Shown: in pieces, positions 6,809 through 64,000 of the stretch
How positions within the stretch are numbered: the first letter of the stretch is position 1
How the letters are laid out: each line of letters begins with the position of its first letter
Source: Myxococcales bacterium
GTDB taxonomy: Bacteria > Myxococcota_A > Polyangia > Polyangiales > DASUME01
Direction: 5' to 3'
Length of the DNA stretch: 64,000 nucleotides
NCBI GenBank assembly: GCA_047601445.1
Contig: JASGJH010000001.1
Span: forward strand, 3,648,001-3,712,000
Translations under genes and position numbers: made by a program
The notes under the pieces: generated by a model
What the model was told of the DNA's origin: nothing
What the model saw: only the letters and a program-made list of their open reading frames with translations
Database searches by the model: none

Positions 6809-8788
6809 CTAGCGGGTCACACAGAAGCCGAACTGGGTAGACGCCCCCGGTTGCAGCACCGCGTTGTGATCGACGCCACCGAAGGTCACCTTCCCCGTGC
6901 TCCCCGAGACCTTGCTCTCCCAGTTTTGGTTGAGGGTCCCACCCAGATCGAGCTGCACCGTCCAGGTCAACGCTGCGGCACTGCGGTTGATGACCTCGAA
7001 GGTGTGGCAGTAGCCGGCGCCCCAGTCGTTGTTCACGGTGAGGTTCAGCTCGAAGTCCTGCTCGGGAGCCGGCGTACCCGCGTCGGACGCGGGTGGAGCG
7101 TCAGGCTTCTCGCCCGGTTCATCGGGCCCGGCGTCGAGCGAGGGCTCCGCACCTTCTCCCTGCTCACGCTGCAACAACAGCTCGGGCGACGTGAGGACGC
7201 CGATCAAGGCCGAGAGGCTGCCGTCCGTGGCGGCGAAGGCGCGCTCGCTGCGCTCGGCGAGGCACACGGATCGCTCGTCCTCGCTCAAGCTGAGGGCGTA
7301 GCGCAAGAGGGAGCGTGCATAGCAACTCTGCACCTGGGCGCTCTGCGCGAGCGCGTCGATCATGGAGGGCAGATCGGCGTAGTCCCCCTGAACGTCGCTG
7401 CTCACCAGGATCTGGGCGCTGTCGTCGATGGCTTGTCCGTGATCGTCGGGTCGGTAGCGTCCGATTCCGTCGAAGTGCTCGAAGGCGAAGCCGATGGGAT
7501 CCATCAGCCGGTGACAGCTCGCGCAGGGCTCCTTCTCGGAATGGGCCGCATAGCGTTCGCGCGAGGTTTTCTTGGGGTCCAGGGCGGGCGGCTCGATCAC
7601 GATGCCTGCCGGCGGCGGCGGGAGGACCTCACACAGGAGACGTTCGCGCACCAAGCGGCCGCGCTGGACAGGCGAGGAGTCGTTGGAGCGTCCATGCGCG
7701 AGCATGGTACCGCCGAGGGTCAAGATGCCGCGTCGCTCCTGCTCGGAGAGCTCGCGGGGCGCGCCATCCATGGTGGAGGCGGCGTCGGGCAGCCCGTAAA
7801 ACATCGCCAGGGTGGGATCGAGGAAGGTGGTCTCGCTCGTCAGCAACGCCCGGACGGATCCCCCCTGCTCGAACAGCACGTGATCCACGAAGCGATCGAC
7901 CTCACGCGAAAGCGCGGTCCGCAGATCTTGGTTGAGCTCGGGAAAGCTGGCGTTGTCCTTGGGCACGGTGGCGATGGCGGCCAGGCCCAGCCAATCCTTC
8001 ACGAAGGCGCGCAGCACCGGGCGCGAGCGCGCATCGGTCAACATGCGGTCGACCGCGGACGTGATCTGCCCGGGCGTGTGCAACTTGCCGGTCCGTGCAG
8101 CCTCGCGCAACGTCGAGTCGGGCGAGGTCTGCCAGAGTAGATAGGAGAGCTCGCTCGCCACCTCGTAGTCGTCGAGCACGTAGAGTCCGCCGGCGTCGTC
8201 GAGCGCGCCGAGCTCGCTGCGATAGAGGAAGCGCGGCGACTGCAGCATGGCGGCGAGTACACGGTTGGCGCCTTCGGCAGGCGTCGGAGCAGCCTGGGCA
8301 AGCTTCAAATAGGGCGCCAGCGCGCTGTCGTCCACAGGGCGTCGGAAGAGCTCCGCGGCGAGCTTCTCGGTCAGCGTCTTCAGGCACGCTGCGTCTGGTG
8401 CAGACAAACAGGGCGCGAAGCGTGTGAGGTCGGCCTGGCTTGCGATGTCTTCGGCAGCGGCTTGCAGCTTGTCGGCCAGCAGCGGCGTCACCAGCAGTCG
8501 ATCGGCCGCGCGTCCGAAACCGTGCTCCACGGGATCGGCCGGAAACGTGGATCCGAAGTCGCCTTCGACCCCGAGCACATCGCGAACCGTGTTCTGATAC
8601 TCCACCGGCGTAAGTCGAACCAAGCGGCGTGCCGGGGCGTGCACTTCGTCGCAGAAGATGCTCTGGGCGCGTTGCCCCGGCAGTCGATCCAGTTCTCCGC
8701 CCAGGGCCGGGCCAGCAGGCGCGCCAGCATCGCACGCCGCGAGCGCGCACAGGAGTCCGAGGTCTCTCAACGAGGAGCGCATGTTCAT
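6809..8788 (-). CDS. DUF1587/1595/1592/1588/1585 lipoprotein with CxxCH and a C-terminal CBM2
   Basis: RLT..EYQNTVRD, QSPRFLYR.E, SSPVQRG, CASCH..MDPIGF.FEHFDGIGR; C-terminal DWGAGYC...W...NW...FGFC typical of CBM2; ATGA overlap at 8785-8788. Confidence 0.85.
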   Translation of the reverse strand: MNMRSSLRDLGLLCALAACDAGAPAGPALGGELDRLPGQRAQSIFCDEVHAPARRLVRLTPVEYQNTVRDVLGVEGDFGSTFPADPVEHGFGRAADRLLVTPLLADKLQAAAEDIASQADLTRFAPCLSAPDAACLKTLTEKLAAELFRRPVDDSALAPYLKLAQAAPTPAEGANRVLAAMLQSPRFLYRSELGALDDAGGLYVLDDYEVASELSYLLWQTSPDSTLREAARTGKLHTPGQITSAVDRMLTDARSRPVLRAFVKDWLGLAAIATVPKDNASFPELNQDLRTALSREVDRFVDHVLFEQGGSVRALLTSETTFLDPTLAMFYGLPDAASTMDGAPRELSEQERRGILTLGGTMLAHGRSNDSSPVQRGRLVRERLLCEVLPPPPAGIVIEPPALDPKKTSRERYAAHSEKEPCASCHRLMDPIGFAFEHFDGIGRYRPDDHGQAIDDSAQILVSSDVQGDYADLPSMIDALAQSAQVQSCYARSLLRYALSLSEDERSVCLAERSERAFAATDGSLSALIGVLTSPELLLQREQGEGAEPSLDAGPDEPGEKPDAPPASDAGTPAPEQDFELNLTVNNDWGAGYCHTFEVINRSAAALTWTVQLDLGGTLNQNWESKVSGSTGKVTFGGVDHNAVLQPGASTQFGFCVTR

Positions 8789-60322: not shown

Positions 60323-61291
60323 ATGGCAGGCAGTCTCGCGGACCGGCTTCATGGGCACCTCTACACCGTAGGGCCGCGCCTCATGGGGCGCATTTCTCCC
60401 CAGCCCGAGCCGCCGCACCGCGTGTGGAAACGGCGCGTGGTGGAGGCCGGGCGGGACGTCACGCTGTCGGGGCTCCTGAGCGAACCCGAGGCGCGAAGCG
60501 CGCGCTCGAACACACTGGCCATCGTGCTTCATGGTTGTGGCGGAAAACCGTCGAGTCACTACACCACGCAGCTCGCCTATCACCTCTATCAAGCCGGTCA
60601 CACGGTGCTGCGCCTGGCCTGGCGCGGCTCCGACCTGGAGGGCGAGGACTTCTATCACGCGGGCCAAACCGCCGACCTGCACGCAGTGCTCGAGGATCCC
60701 GCGCTCGCTCATCATCAGCAGGTGTGGGCCATCGGTTTCTCACTCGGTGGCCACGCATGCCTGCACTTCGCGCACGAGTCCACCGACGCGCGCCTGGTGA
60801 AGGTGGCCGCCATCTGCCCGGTGCTGAACCTGATCCAGACGAATCACTTCATCGACAGCTCGCAAGCGGCTCTCTATCGAATCTACACGCTGCGAGGCCT
60901 GCGTGAGGGCTACGCCAAGGCCGCCGCCCGCGGACGCACGCCGACCGATCTCGCGGCGGTGTCGCGTGCCAACACCTTCCGTGCCTACGACGCGCTCACG
61001 GTGGTGCCTCGCTACGGTTTCACGTCGGTGGACGACTACTACACGCGCAGCTGCGTCTCCCGCATCGTCGATCGCATCACGCGACCCACGCTCATCCTCT
61101 CGGCGCGCCACGATCCCATGCTGCCCTGGCAGATCGCGGACGGCATGCGCGCGCGCTTCTCCTCGGCGATCACCTTCCGTTGGGCCGAGCGCGGCGGCCA
61201 CTGCGCCTTTCCGAGCGACGTGGATCTGGGCCTCGACCAGGGCGGCAGCGGCTTCGAAGACCAGCTCCACCGCTGGCTACTCGGCGAGTGA
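60323..61291 (+). CDS. YheT-like alpha/beta hydrolase
   Basis: VLHGCGG, FYHAG.T.DL, GFSLGG, GF.SVDDYY, ARHDP, GGHCAF. Confidence 0.9.
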   Translation: MAGSLADRLHGHLYTVGPRLMGRISPQPEPPHRVWKRRVVEAGRDVTLSGLLSEPEARSARSNTLAIVLHGCGGKPSSHYTTQLAYHLYQAGHTVLRLAWRGSDLEGEDFYHAGQTADLHAVLEDPALAHHQQVWAIGFSLGGHACLHFAHESTDARLVKVAAICPVLNLIQTNHFIDSSQAALYRIYTLRGLREGYAKAAARGRTPTDLAAVSRANTFRAYDALTVVPRYGFTSVDDYYTRSCVSRIVDRITRPTLILSARHDPMLPWQIADGMRARFSSAITFRWAERGGHCAFPSDVDLGLDQGGSGFEDQLHRWLLGE

Positions 61292-62434
61292 GACCTCGTC
61301 GACCCTGCGCAGATAGCGCGTGGCGGGGTTCTCCCGACGCCAGATCACCGTGTCCATGAAGTAGTGGTGGATGTTCACGAAGGCGTAGAACGTGGCGAAA
61401 TAGGGAGTCGGCCCCAGCGCCGCGCGCGTGTTCGCGCTGGGCAGGTTGCCGTCCATCGCCTGCGGTCCCCCACGAAACAAGAGCCAGCCCAGTGCGACCG
61501 CTGACACCGCGAGCCAGCCCAGGCGCACGGAGACAGGCTTCTCGAACCAGGGCGGGCCTTCCCTTTCCTGGGCCTCGGCGCGCTTGAGCAACCACACCAT
61601 GTACAAGTACTGCAGCGAGTGCAGCGCAGGGATCGCATAGCGCACGAGGGGATCGAGGCTCGAATACACCGACCACAACCAGATGCTCGAGAGGTACGCC
61701 AGGAGCGGCGTGAGCGGGGGCAGCTGCCTCTGGCGGCGCCAGCGCGCGACGAGGGTCCAGCACAGCACCGCGAAGGTCGCCAGGAAGATCAGCTGGGTGA
61801 CACGTTCGAGCCCGACGGGGTGCGCGAAGGTCACGTAGGGAACCCCCTTCTCTTCCAGGCTGCGTCCCGGGTCCGCCGGGCTCGCCCAGGCGTAAGCCCA
61901 GCCCGCATAGGCATGCGCGAGCAAGCTGGTGCGCTCTGCCGAACCGAAGAAGAACGAGCGCCGCGCCGCGAGCACGGTCAGCACGCCGAAGCCTTGCTTG
62001 ACGTAGTGCCAGCCCACCAGCAGGAACATCAACTGGATCAAGAGCCCCAGGCTCCACACCGAGGGCGCGAGCAAGGCGTAAAGCCCCCATGCCGCGAGCA
62101 CGAGCGGCACCAGCAGTCCCACGACCAGATAGCGGACCCGCTGGGCCCCGACGAACTCGGGCCCCATGCTGCGCGCACGAATCCCGCGGTAGAACAGGAG
62201 ATAGGTCACCGCGAAATGCGGGTCGTTGATCACGTGGGCGGCCCAAAACATGGTGAACCCCACCATGAGTTCGGCCTCGTCGAGCCCGAAGGCACCCCGC
62301 AGCGCGTAGGAGAGCCCGAACAGGAACGGCGTGGCTCCCCCCACCAGCAGGAACTCCACCAGGTTCGCGGACCAGGGTCGTCTCTCCCGGGCCGCGAGTC
62401 CGGCATCCTCCAGGGTGGCCGACAGGCTCGTCAT
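61277..62434 (-). CDS. Polytopic membrane protein with multiple His motifs, function unknown
   Basis: About 8-10 hydrophobic segments; HVINDPHF, WHYVKQ, HSLQY, NIHHYFMD; co-oriented downstream of the peptide genes. Confidence 0.8.
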   Translation of the reverse strand: MTSLSATLEDAGLAARERRPWSANLVEFLLVGGATPFLFGLSYALRGAFGLDEAELMVGFTMFWAAHVINDPHFAVTYLLFYRGIRARSMGPEFVGAQRVRYLVVGLLVPLVLAAWGLYALLAPSVWSLGLLIQLMFLLVGWHYVKQGFGVLTVLAARRSFFFGSAERTSLLAHAYAGWAYAWASPADPGRSLEEKGVPYVTFAHPVGLERVTQLIFLATFAVLCWTLVARWRRQRQLPPLTPLLAYLSSIWLWSVYSSLDPLVRYAIPALHSLQYLYMVWLLKRAEAQEREGPPWFEKPVSVRLGWLAVSAVALGWLLFRGGPQAMDGNLPSANTRAALGPTPYFATFYAFVNIHHYFMDTVIWRRENPATRYLRRVDEVSLAE

Positions 62435-62497
62435 CGCCGAGCATGCTGCCTGAAGTCGGGCGGGCTTGCCAGCGTGAGCCGCCGGCCTCCAAATGGC

Positions 62498-62544
62498 CGA
62501 GCTCGCACGTGGCCTGGCTGTGACCAGGACCACGTACGAGCTCG
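62498..62544. other. Long inverted repeat between the peptide genes and the membrane protein gene
   Basis: CGAGCTCGCACGTGGCCTGG-CTGTGA-CCAGGACCACGTACGAGCTCG. Confidence 0.7.
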
Positions 62545-62591
62545 TGAACCCAAGAGAGATGCGGTCAGAGACCGCACCGCTCATCGGCTTC

Positions 62592-62780
62592 TCAGCCAAC
62601 CTCGTTGAGCACGTTGCCGATGTAGCTCAGCACGTCGCCCACGTGGGTGTTGGCAGCGATGAAGCTGGCAACGTTGATGTTGTTGCAGTTGACCGAGCCG
62701 TTGCCGATGTCGGCAAGGCCACCGGCCACGGACTCAAGAGCAGACTCTTCGACGGACACGAACTGGATGGCGTTCTTCAT
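62592..62780 (-). CDS. Double-glycine-leader peptide 3 (62 aa)
   Basis: RBS AGGAGA; leader MKNAIQFVSVEESALESVAGG; paralog of the two upstream peptides. Confidence 0.85.
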   Translation of the reverse strand: MKNAIQFVSVEESALESVAGGLADIGNGSVNCNNINVASFIAANTHVGDVLSYIGNVLNEVG

Positions 62781-62891
62781 GGTGATTTCTCCTGATGCTT
62801 TTTAATGTCTTTGGGTTGTTTGCTTGATTTCAGTGACTTGATTCAGTGCAGTACTCAGAAACCTGGAACGACCTATTGGGTCGTCCGGAGC

Positions 62892-63116
62892 TCAGCAGAG
62901 CGGGCCTTCGCCGCCCACGGGGCAGCAGCTGCTCACGTCGTTGAGGATGTTCAGGATGTAGCTGCCGACGTCGCCCACCGAGGTGTTGGCGCTGAGGAAG
63001 CTAGCCACGTTGATGTTGTTGTGGTTCACCGAGCCGTTGCCGATGTCGGCAAGGCCGCCGGCCACGGACTCCAGCGCAGACTCTTCGACGGACACGAACT
63101 GGATGGCGTTCTTCAT
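62892..63116 (-). CDS. Double-glycine-leader peptide 2 (74 aa, C-terminal CCPVGGEGPLC)
   Basis: RBS AGGAGA; leader identical in protein sequence to peptide 3. Confidence 0.85.
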   Translation of the reverse strand: MKNAIQFVSVEESALESVAGGLADIGNGSVNHNNINVASFLSANTSVGDVGSYILNILNDVSSCCPVGGEGPLC

Positions 63117-63186
63117 GATGATCTCTCCTGTGCGTTCTTTGATTCGAGCGTTGGTTATCGAGCGTTGAACTGCGGAAAACTTGGGC

Positions 63187-63417
63187 TCAGTCGGTGGGCT
63201 GAGCAGAGGAGCCGCAACCGCCGCCACAGCCGTGGACCTGATTGAGCACGTTGAGCAGCACGCTGGCGACGTCGCCGAGACCGGTGTTGATGGTCACGTT
63301 GCTGAGCACGTTGATGTTGTTGCCGTTGAGCGAGCCGTTGAGGACGTCGGCGAGGCCGCCGGACACGCTCTCGAGGGCCTGCTCATCGACGGACACGAAC
63401 TGGATCTGCGTGGTCAT
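63187..63417 (-). CDS. Double-glycine-leader peptide 1 (76 aa, C-terminal GCGGGCG)
   Basis: RBS AGGAG; leader MTTQIQFVSVDEQALESVSGG. Confidence 0.85.
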   Translation of the reverse strand: MTTQIQFVSVDEQALESVSGGLADVLNGSLNGNNINVLSNVTINTGLGDVASVLLNVLNQVHGCGGGCGSSAQPTD

Positions 63418-63522
63418 GGTGATTGCTCCTGGTTGCTTGGGTGTTGGTTCTCGTGTGCGAGCTCGAGTCAGCCGGACCGCGAATCTGCTCGTCGTCCTCA
63501 GCGTCTCGTGACCAGGTGCTTG

Positions 63523-63539
63523 AGCAGGAGTCGTGCCGG
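63523..63539 (-). promoter_or_regulatory. Sigma54 -24/-12 promoter for the peptide cluster
   Basis: Minus strand CCGGCACGACTCCTGCT = GGCACG-N4-CTGCT (GG-N10-GC), ~105 bp upstream of the peptide 1 ATG. Confidence 0.65.
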
Positions 63540-63627
63540 GTCGCACACGAGGGCACGGCTTCGCACGCAGGCGAGCGACGAGTTCGATCGCATCGCGCGC
63601 ACGTCAGCGCACGGTTCGGCACGGGTT

Positions 63628-63713
63628 CGCGCACTTGCACCGCGGCGGCGTTCCCAACTGCGTGCAGGCGGTTCGAGCGTTCGCCGGGCGCCGGGTCCGC
63701 GCGCGCACTTGCA
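63628..63713. repeat. 12-bp direct repeat CGCGCACTTGCA x2 (candidate enhancer-binding sites)
   Basis: Exact copies at 63628-63639 and 63702-63713, upstream of the sigma54 motif. Confidence 0.5.
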
Positions 63714-64000
63714 GGGGGCCGCCGTTTGATGAAGCAGCTCACAGCCGGCGGCCCGTGAGGTCAAGGCGGTTGGCGGCGGAGCCGCTAGCCATGGCGACTA
63801 GCGAGGTGGCCGCCACTCGAGCCCAGGCCCCGAAGCCTCCCTCTAAACGCCGATCAAGTGAGGCACTTTGGCCTTGTTCAACGGGAGGCACGCGCCACTC
63901 CCGCCCGTCGCGGCGAAGCCGCGCCCCGGACCCACCCTCCGCGGGGTTCGTTGCGCTCACGAAATCCGTTGAGGTCTGGGCACCTTCGGCCCGGGTCTTC

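What the first reader, a model, noticed from the sequence alone, without database searches (positions are those of the whole stretch)
61277..63713. Candidate new secreted-peptide system: three double-Gly-leader, Asn-rich peptides plus a His-motif membrane protein under sigma54 control
Seen: three co-oriented small ORFs, each with an AGGAG RBS. They share a 21-aa leader ending L-E-S-V-[AS]-G-G and cores of 55, 53 and 41 aa (LAD[VI]xNGS[LV]NxNNINV...NTx[LV]GDVxS..xN[VI]LN). A ~385-aa multi-TM protein follows, and a GG-N10-GC promoter lies upstream. Known: leaders of the EL..V.GG type are cleaved and exported by C39-peptidase ABC transporters (PCATs) and mark class II bacteriocins, microcins and many RiPPs. 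Inference: this is a RiPP-like or structural-peptide locus. It has no recognisable lanthipeptide, YcaO, radical SAM or PCAT gene in the window, so I cannot assign it to a known class.
Basis: partly seen in the sequence, partly recalled or inferred. Interest (0 to 1): 0.88.

Follow-up and report, generated by a model that had tools for sequence, protein, structure and literature searches.

The report
Satellite array of exported Asn-rich peptides
Three small genes belong to a new family of short, asparagine-rich peptides that a myxobacterium probably exports through a transporter encoded far away in the genome, perhaps to build sticky surface fibres, and the membrane protein next to them is most likely an unrelated neighbour rather than their modifying enzyme.

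Summary
The three double-glycine peptides, their ribosome-binding sites, the sigma54-type box and the 385-aa His-motif membrane protein are all real. The peptides are a satellite array. Five paralogues lie 4.56 Mb away, followed by two membrane-fusion proteins and a C39-peptidase ABC exporter (PCAT) with no modifying enzyme. Both arrays share an identical 23-bp promoter stretch and an upstream palindrome found twice in the genome.

The membrane protein does not follow the peptides. It occurs in 142 of 401 order genomes, the peptides in 2 of 401, and only this genome has both. G004 has seven peptides plus the PCAT and no match to it. G007 lacks the whole peptide/PCAT cassette at both syntenic sites but keeps it intact. 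Linkage is seen or inferred only in three other close relatives.

Best reading: a new, narrowly distributed family of unmodified PCAT cargo. Anionic, Asn/aliphatic, proline-free cores and no evident small immunity gene point to self-assembling surface or matrix peptides (EbfG- or MccAB1-like). A microcin-like toxin is the main rival. A new RiPP class built on the membrane protein is unlikely (about 10%).

The parts
63788..63811 (-). Putative upstream activator site containing the palindrome GCCATGGC, about 250-275 bp upstream of the sigma54 box
   Evidence: The extended pattern has exactly 2 hits in the 9.5-Mb genome, one at each peptide array. It is conserved in L038, L039 and the G004 master locus, and the palindrome core precedes both G004 singletons. 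Function inferred.
63629..63713 (.). Two copies of an 11-bp direct repeat (63629-63639, 63703-63713); probably incidental
   Evidence: 12 copies genome-wide; absent from L038 (peptide strand checked) and from the master locus L003.
63515..63537 (-). Sigma54-type -24/-12 box (GG-N10-GC at 63537-63524) inside a 23-bp stretch identical to the one before the master array
   Evidence: The first 19 bp occur twice in the genome, once at each array. The box is conserved at all 7 array or singleton starts aligned. The genome has 53 Sigma54_activat matches. No TSS data.
63187..63417 (-). Peptide 1: 21-aa GG leader + 55-aa core with a Cys/Gly tail
   Evidence: family alignments.
62892..63116 (-). Peptide 2: 21-aa GG leader + 53-aa core with a Cys tail
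62592..62780 (-). Peptide 3: 21-aa GG leader + 41-aa core (minimal family unit)
62495..62591 (-). Two tandem hairpins closing the peptide array (terminator, attenuator or mRNA stabiliser)
   Evidence: z = -6.9 for 62445-62591 and -9.2 for 62495-62550. L038 has a hairpin at the same place (z -2.3). A similar hairpin (z -6.3) also precedes the export genes at the master locus, so read-through is not excluded. The terminator scan did not list them.
62443..62472 (-). Possible own promoter of the membrane-protein gene (two hexamer-like blocks 18 bp apart, 8 nt before the ATG, no Shine-Dalgarno)
   Evidence: The block is conserved in G000, L038 and the peptide-less G007. It was not called by the sigma70 scan. 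Promoter role and leaderless start are inferred.
61277..62434 (-). 385-aa helical membrane protein with six invariant His, uncharacterised family widespread in the order; probable bystander
   Evidence: No significant Pfam or NCBIfam family. 1989 homologues. In 142 of 401 genomes. Model pLDDT 91.
60323..61291 (+). Convergent alpha/beta hydrolase; part of the conserved neighbourhood, not of the peptide system
   Evidence: Abhydrolase_1 E 3.6e-13. Syntenic in G007 and L038.

Best explanation
The three genes are a satellite array of an eight-copy family of unmodified double-glycine peptides.

1. Shown (sequence): the satellite and the master array (G000:C1:8271921-8273363) share leader, core, sigma54 box and upstream palindrome.
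2. Inferred: one enhancer-binding protein switches both arrays on together.
3. From established PCAT biology: the master-locus PCAT cuts after GG and, with its two MFPs and a TolC-like channel encoded elsewhere, exports the 41-55-aa cores in trans.
4. Inferred, the weakest step: the anionic, Asn/aliphatic cores co-assemble outside the cell into fibres or a surface layer, as EbfG1-3 and MccAB1 do. Extra arrays raise dosage and variety. Optional Cys tails may cross-link.
5. Well supported: the membrane protein is a separately transcribed, probably metal-binding membrane enzyme that sits beside the array and does not act on it.

Odds: steps 1-3 about 0.85, step 5 about 0.8, step 4 about 0.5.
For: Master locus and exporter: five paralogues, then HlyD_3 MFPs and a Peptidase_C39-ABC protein with Q/C, H and D motifs, and no modifying enzyme. 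The same order is seen in G004 and in L039/L041. The genome has only 2 C39 domains; the second serves a different leader/core family. It has 40 OEP matches.

Dispersal: G004 has two scattered singletons with the same box and palindrome.

Natural deletion: in G007, the OmpA-like gene is followed after about 60 bp by the orthologue of a downstream gene, so promoter, peptides, MFPs and PCAT are missing. Its satellite site has no peptides, yet the membrane protein is intact. G007 is closer to G000 than G004 is (82 vs 75% and 72 vs 67%).

Cores: N 18%, L+V+I 39%, K+R 1%, P 0%, and net charge -1 to -5 in all 59 in-register cores of 61. Positions 13-26 alternate hydrophobic and polar residues. L1, D3, N6, N12, S18, G27, S31, N35 and N38 are invariant in 32 aligned peptides. 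No convincing small immunity ORF lies in four arrays.

Precedents: PMC4997328 and PMC9981879 (passages); PMC13188072 (abstract and first part of Results).
Against: No expression, cleavage or fibre data.

Core positions 1-11 and 27-40 show helical amphipathic periodicity, and the low-confidence model is helical (pLDDT 57); this fits a membrane-active peptide equally well. Class II microcins are also hydrophobic and mostly neutral or anionic (PMC10233263 passages), and MccAB1 has a 'hidden' immunity protein (section heading only). The GAV/GAA motif tied to MccAB1 amyloid is in only 3 of 61 cores.

On the bystander claim: peptides precede the membrane gene in L038 and probably on two more contigs (matching source and contig length only). 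These proteins form one clade (SH-aLRT 99, quick tree) with G007's copy nested inside (support 90), so the linkage is probably ancestral in that clade.
Confidence: 0.5

Rival explanations
1. Same export and regulation, but the cores are class IIa microcin-like or multi-peptide bacteriocins. Two amphipathic helices insert into the membranes of prey or competitors, and immunity is hidden or not needed.
For: GG leader + PCAT + MFP is the class IIa layout, and size 4-5.5 kDa, hydrophobicity and anionic charge fit (PMC10233263 passages). Helical moments at core 1-11 and 27-40. Weak Bacteriocin_IIc matches in 16 of 32 and CTB matches in 13 of 32 members, all under cut-off. The same review notes Bacteroides GG-peptide bacteriocins without an immunity protein.
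Against: No small TM immunity gene between or beside the peptides. Eight near-identical scaffolds in one genome, with invariant Asn/Ser, rather than divergent toxin cores. The family matches lie mostly in the leader.
Confidence: 0.27
2. One reading: the His-rich membrane protein is a metal-dependent tailoring enzyme (for example an Asn hydroxylase or desaturase) recruited in one clade to modify the satellite peptides, which makes a new RiPP class.
For: Co-oriented and adjacent in G000 and L038, probably in two more contigs. The linked proteins form a clade, and most satellite-type peptides form a subgroup (SH-aLRT 97). Six invariant His. Invariant Asn and Ser in the cores could be substrates.
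Against: 141 of the 142 genomes with the protein have no peptide match. 0 of 28 further loci (1.5-kb flanks) show a GG peptide, and their neighbours vary. G004 has no match even with a 105-sequence profile. G007 keeps the gene without cargo or exporter. Its upstream block is conserved without peptides. The same Asn/Ser are invariant in unlinked paralogues, and peptide 1 falls outside the satellite subgroup.
Confidence: 0.1
3. The peptides are secreted developmental or density signals sensed through a two-component/enhancer-binding-protein circuit that feeds back on their own sigma54 promoter.
For: GG-leader peptides include pheromones (ComC weak matches in 11 of 32, leader region). Dedicated shared promoter and palindrome.
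Against: No sensor kinase or enhancer-binding protein lies at either G000 array. 41-55-aa hydrophobic cores in eight strongly translated copies suggest bulk production (inference).
Confidence: 0.08
4. The membrane protein is the immunity factor for toxic peptides.
For: It is an adjacent, co-oriented inner-membrane protein.
Against: 385 aa against 51-216 aa for known microcin immunity proteins (PMC10233263). Absent from the master locus and from G004. Widespread without the peptides.
Confidence: 0.04

Closest known systems
EbfG1-4 / PteB of Synechococcus elongatus PCC 7942 (PMC4997328, PMC9981879; passages read)
   Same: Tandem operon of small GG-leader paralogues exported by a C39 PCAT, with partial redundancy. 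EbfG1-3 form amyloid, with a hotspot A-hydrophobic-N-I-small; our cores have LNIG in 18 of 61 and [LAG]N[IV][GA]N in 40 of 61.
   Different: No sequence comparison was possible, as the EbfG sequences were not fetched. Here there are shorter cores, two MFPs, satellite arrays served in trans and a sigma54 regulon. Function is untested.
Class IIa microcins, especially amyloid-forming MccAB1 (PMC13188072) and MccE492 (PMC10233263)
   Same: GG leader, PCAT + MFP, unmodified hydrophobic anionic core with optional Cys.
   Different: No adjacent small immunity gene, 7-8 paralogues per genome, Asn-rich rather than Gly/Ala-rich, GAV motif rare (3 of 61), and a myxobacterial host.
CTB family bacteriocin (NCBIfam NF038167, Pfam PF28158)
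   Same: Leader and first 10-16 core residues match weakly (best 27.4 bits, positions 1-37 of 72). The nearest Atlas cluster carries PF28158 in 12% of members at score 0.89, a lead only.
   Different: All members tested score below the 32-bit cut-off, and the C-terminal part of the profile is not matched.
NHLP/NHLM-type exporter (TIGR03796)
   Same: Best NCBIfam match of the master PCAT (619 bits).
   Different: Below the 853-bit cut-off. No second peptidase-less ABC gene, no NHLP leader and no cyclodehydratase at the locus.
Brp/Blh beta-carotene dioxygenase (PF15461), recalled as a His-ligated helical membrane enzyme; compared with the membrane protein only
   Same: Several His motifs in transmembrane helices.
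   Different: No PF15461 match in 105 members. hhalign probability 0.07% against a shallow 3-sequence profile.

Membership tests
PCAT-exported double-glycine peptide | Leader ending in GG/GA with the hydrophobic -4/-7/-12 and acidic pattern | tested here: met
   F7, E12, L15, V18, G20, G21 invariant in 32 peptides. Compare the consensus quoted in PMC3140520.
PCAT-exported double-glycine peptide | Cognate C39-ABC transporter and MFP in the genome | tested here: met
   4.56 Mb away, beside five paralogues.
PCAT-exported double-glycine peptide | Cleavage after GG and secretion | not testable with these tools
   Needs mass spectrometry.
Class IIa microcin | 5-10 kDa unmodified core, PCAT + MFP | tested here: met
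   Cores of 41-55 aa, at or just under the lower size limit. No modifying enzyme at the master locus.
Class IIa microcin | Small membrane immunity gene immediately adjacent | tested here: not met
   In four arrays the other ORFs of 30 aa or more are antisense or off-frame shadows, or lack coding bias. A very short or hidden gene is not excluded.
Class IIa microcin | Antibacterial activity | not testable with these tools
   Needs growth and zone assays.
CTB family bacteriocin (NF038167) | Score of at least 32 bits over the profile | tested here: not met
   Best 27.4 bits; window peptides 14-17 bits. No match in G000.
EbfG-like matrix peptides | Tandem GG paralogues with a dedicated PCAT | tested here: met
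EbfG-like matrix peptides | Sequence homology to EbfG1-4 | not tested
   EbfG sequences were not fetched. PMC4997328 says mature EbfG lack homologues in other cyanobacteria.
EbfG-like matrix peptides | Amyloid or fibre formation and matrix location | not testable with these tools
   Composition and periodicity only.
Enzyme-modified RiPP (lanthipeptide, YcaO, radical SAM/proteusin) | Tailoring enzyme clustered with the precursor | tested here: not met
   The single YcaO match lies about 190 kb and the nearest of 27 radical SAM matches about 43 kb from the master array; none is near the window. LANC_like gave no match, but its control was silent. Action in trans is not excluded.
New RiPP with the membrane protein as tailoring enzyme | Enzyme and precursor co-occur and are co-lost | tested here: not met
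   Linkage only within one clade.
Brp/Blh (PF15461), for the membrane protein | Profile match to BCD | tested here: not met
   0 of 105 members at E <= 0.1.
Brp/Blh (PF15461), for the membrane protein | Remote homology or shared fold and metal site | tested here: inconclusive
   Shallow hhalign. Fold searches not decisive.

The most novel reading that the evidence does not exclude
In one clade of this myxobacterial genus, a widespread but uncharacterised His-metal membrane enzyme with no recognised family was recruited to modify (for example hydroxylate at Asn) a subset of PCAT-exported, self-assembling peptides. This would give a new RiPP class and the first function for a family of about 2000 proteins. 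A milder novel reading, a myxobacterial matrix fibre co-assembled from eight variant GG peptides under one sigma54 regulon, has probability near 0.45 and would merit about 0.6.
Probability: 0.1. Interest if true: 0.85.

Novelty: new member of a known kind. Interest (0 to 1): 0.45.

Why it matters
The family is new in sequence: about 60 members, none with a curated family match. It gives a compact, testable case of PCAT cargo in myxobacteria, a group for which my seven literature searches listed no such system. If the cores form fibres, the idea that GG 'bacteriocin-like' peptides are matrix building blocks (so far from EbfG and MccAB1) extends to a third lineage, with a multi-subunit, two-locus, sigma54-coordinated design. 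The shared promoter and palindrome define a two-member regulon that could be used to find its activator. The finding also shows that an adjacent His-motif protein should not be read as a RiPP enzyme without a co-loss test. That protein family remains an open target in its own right.

Tried and rejected
Structure and complex prediction:
- Foldseek against PDB gave no match at E <= 0.001. The wide VIA search gave only Z <= 6.1 (rmsd 5-7 A) to rhodopsin-like helical bundles, which may be a common arrangement. PDB sequence searches with both profiles found nothing significant.
- The AlphaFold2 model of peptide 1 was low confidence.
- A four-copy complex of the core returned 'no answer', score 0.02; not used as evidence.

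Expression and RNA: no sequencing run was listed for the stretch, so expression is untested. Rfam gave no match in 61000-64000.

Wider distribution: tblastn of one family member against plasmids gave no match. CTB profile over 401 phylum genomes: 1 sub-threshold match, not examined. The 1289-aa hit is an unrelated tandem-repeat protein and was dropped. L042 (E 2e-4) showed no convincing peptide ORF and was dropped.

Trees: the careful membrane-protein tree did not finish, so the quick tree is quoted (37 rows: 28 of the 120 listed homologues plus 9 genome copies). The peptide tree has few columns and many open forks.

Recalled resemblances: chaplins/rodlins and polytheonamide-type Asn-rich cores came from memory. 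No chaplin or rodlin Pfam match appeared, and no radical SAM gene is clustered; dropped. Brp/Blh was tested and not supported.

Other: the 11-bp direct repeat was rejected as a conserved operator. Earlier-findings look-ups by peptide and by membrane protein returned nothing.
Full report
Observation. The window is G000:C1:3648001-3712000, in a 9.5-Mb single-contig genome. Close relatives are labelled Polyangiales by the tools. The three ORFs translate as described, with 21-aa leaders, cores of 55, 53 and 41 aa and AGGAG sites. The 385-aa protein follows after 157 bp. Neither has a significant Pfam or NCBIfam family. The GG-N10-GC box is at 63524-63537.

The rest of the system lies elsewhere. 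tblastn of the genome finds five paralogues at C1:8271921-8273363. They follow a leuA-like and an OmpA-domain gene and precede two HlyD-type membrane-fusion proteins and a Peptidase_C39-ABC transporter, whose Q/C, H and D motifs are present. No tailoring enzyme is in that cluster. The genome has one other C39 transporter, beside a different peptide family. The same master layout occurs in G004 and in metagenome contigs L039 and L041. G004 also has two singleton copies 8 kb apart among unrelated genes, so this family spawns satellites.

Shared regulation. The two G000 arrays share 23 identical bases over the sigma54 box, and the first 19 occur only twice in the genome. About 250-275 bp upstream both carry a palindrome-containing element whose extended pattern has exactly 2 genome hits. 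Box plus palindrome at that spacing occurs 3 times against about 0.7 expected, 2 of them at the arrays. The box is conserved at 7 of 7 aligned starts, and the palindrome core precedes all 7. That sigma54 and an enhancer-binding protein use these sites is inferred; the genome has 53 activator-domain matches.

Distribution. The peptide profile matches 2 of 401 order genomes, G000 and G004. It finds 60 proteins among 491 candidates and 5 real clusters plus 1 spurious among 1.84 billion representatives. The membrane protein matches 142 of the same 401 (three of these genomes are unpublished and enter only this count and one locus) and has 1989 homologues. Only G000 has both. G004 (97% complete) has no match to the protein, even with a 105-sequence profile. 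None of 8 relative loci or 28 further loci (1.5-kb flanks, codon-bias filter, one flag was the cut end of a longer ORF) shows a GG peptide, and the neighbours differ from genome to genome.

The informative relative is G007 (94% complete). It has the same YkuD-like, membrane protein, abhydrolase and DUF2062 neighbourhood with no peptides in between. At the master site its OmpA-like gene is followed after about 60 bp by the orthologue of a downstream gene, so the promoter, peptides, MFPs and PCAT are all missing. G007 is closer to G000 than G004 is, so loss is the simpler reading. Peptides and exporter were lost together and the membrane gene stayed intact. A block just upstream of the membrane gene's ATG is conserved in G000, L038 and G007, and strong hairpins close the array. 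Both suggest a separate transcription unit, though a similar hairpin precedes the export genes at the master locus.

Evidence the other way. L038 has four peptides directly before a 70% identical membrane protein. Two more top homologues share source and contig length with family peptides (P0006/P0177, P0007/P0182), which I could not confirm on DNA. These proteins and G007's form one clade (SH-aLRT 99) with G007's nested (90) in a quick tree, and most satellite-type peptides group together (97). The linkage is therefore probably one ancestral event kept by synteny, along with flanking genes at 83-88% identity. Recruitment of the enzyme in that clade cannot be excluded; I give it about 10%.

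The membrane protein. The model is confident (pLDDT 91) and six His are invariant, which suggests a membrane metal site (inference). Its nearest Atlas clusters are unnamed. It is not Brp/Blh by profile. One homologue is fused to a GDSL/SGNH esterase. Distant paralogues lie near an acyltransferase and other large membrane proteins, without GG peptides (5 loci). My guess is an envelope lipid or glycan enzyme, at low confidence.

The cores. Of 61 unique cores, 59 are in register (2 dropped; N6 and G27 were the register filter). They are 18% Asn, 39% Leu/Val/Ile, 1% Lys/Arg, lack Pro, and all are anionic. L1, D3, N6, N12, S18, G27, S31, N35 and N38 are invariant in an unfiltered 32-sequence alignment. 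Cys positions are not conserved, and Cys tails also occur in unlinked copies. Hydrophobic periodicity is helical at 1-11 and 27-40 and strand-like at 13-26 (scale recalled). No convincing immunity ORF lies in four arrays.

Mechanism. Both arrays are probably induced together, cleaved and exported by the master PCAT. The cores then most likely self-assemble at the surface. This rests on composition, copy number, the missing immunity gene and precedent, not on a test.

Comparison with known systems. EbfG1-4 are tandem GG peptides exported by the C39 transporter PteB and needed for biofilm (PMC4997328, passages); EbfG1-3 form amyloid (PMC9981879, passages). MccAB1 is a microcin that both kills and forms biofilm fibres (PMC13188072, abstract and first third of Results). 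Class II microcin features are from PMC10233263 (passages), and the leader consensus from PMC3140520 (passages). PMC12219008 does not mention myxobacteria in its main text (term search); supplements were not read and could list such peptides. The CTB family matches only below cut-off, mostly in the leader. Searches listed no paper on this family; the library lacks most subscription journals.

Verdict. This is a real, new and narrow peptide family of a known kind (unmodified PCAT cargo), with a satellite-plus-master layout and shared promoter. Interest 0.45.

Noticed in passing
L007:8146-13080 (G000:C1:4867145-4872079); two more copies in L008 near 8300-8730: A second GG-peptide family beside its own two MFPs and PCAT. 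The 43-aa cores alternate hydrophobic and polar residues, and most end in or near Phe. Also in G004, G006 and G007; no Pfam or NCBIfam match. It looks like a beta-hairpin or outer-membrane-forming peptide and is more widespread in the genus than the family studied.
   Followed up: partly
L005:6531-6749 (G000:C1:3741530), 30 kb beyond the window: Orphan peptide with a closely related leader, a Gly/Leu-rich core and a near-identical sigma54 box but no upstream palindrome; likely another cargo of the master PCAT.
   Followed up: partly
L006:7750-7959 (G000:C1:3943749): Orphan peptide with a related GG leader and a Cys-rich 48-aa core; no family match.
   Followed up: no
L009:7228 onward (G000:C1:4099227): Pro-rich GG-leader peptide before a P450-like and an amidinotransferase-like gene (names from my reading of the sequences); already noted by an earlier finding.
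   Followed up: partly
window 61277-62434 and homologues P0005-P0123; P0107: The His-motif membrane family (about 2000 proteins, Atlas clusters also in Planctomycetota and Acidobacteriota) has a confident model but no family or clear fold match; one member is fused to a GDSL/SGNH esterase. Worth its own study.
   Followed up: partly
L003:7539-9422; L035; L039; L105: An OmpA-domain protein sits directly upstream of the master array in G000, G004 and L039, but stays in G007, which lacks the array, so it is probably not part of the system.
   Followed up: yes
L099 (G529:C89:84046-84192): Only CTB-like match in 401 phylum genomes, sub-threshold.
   Followed up: no
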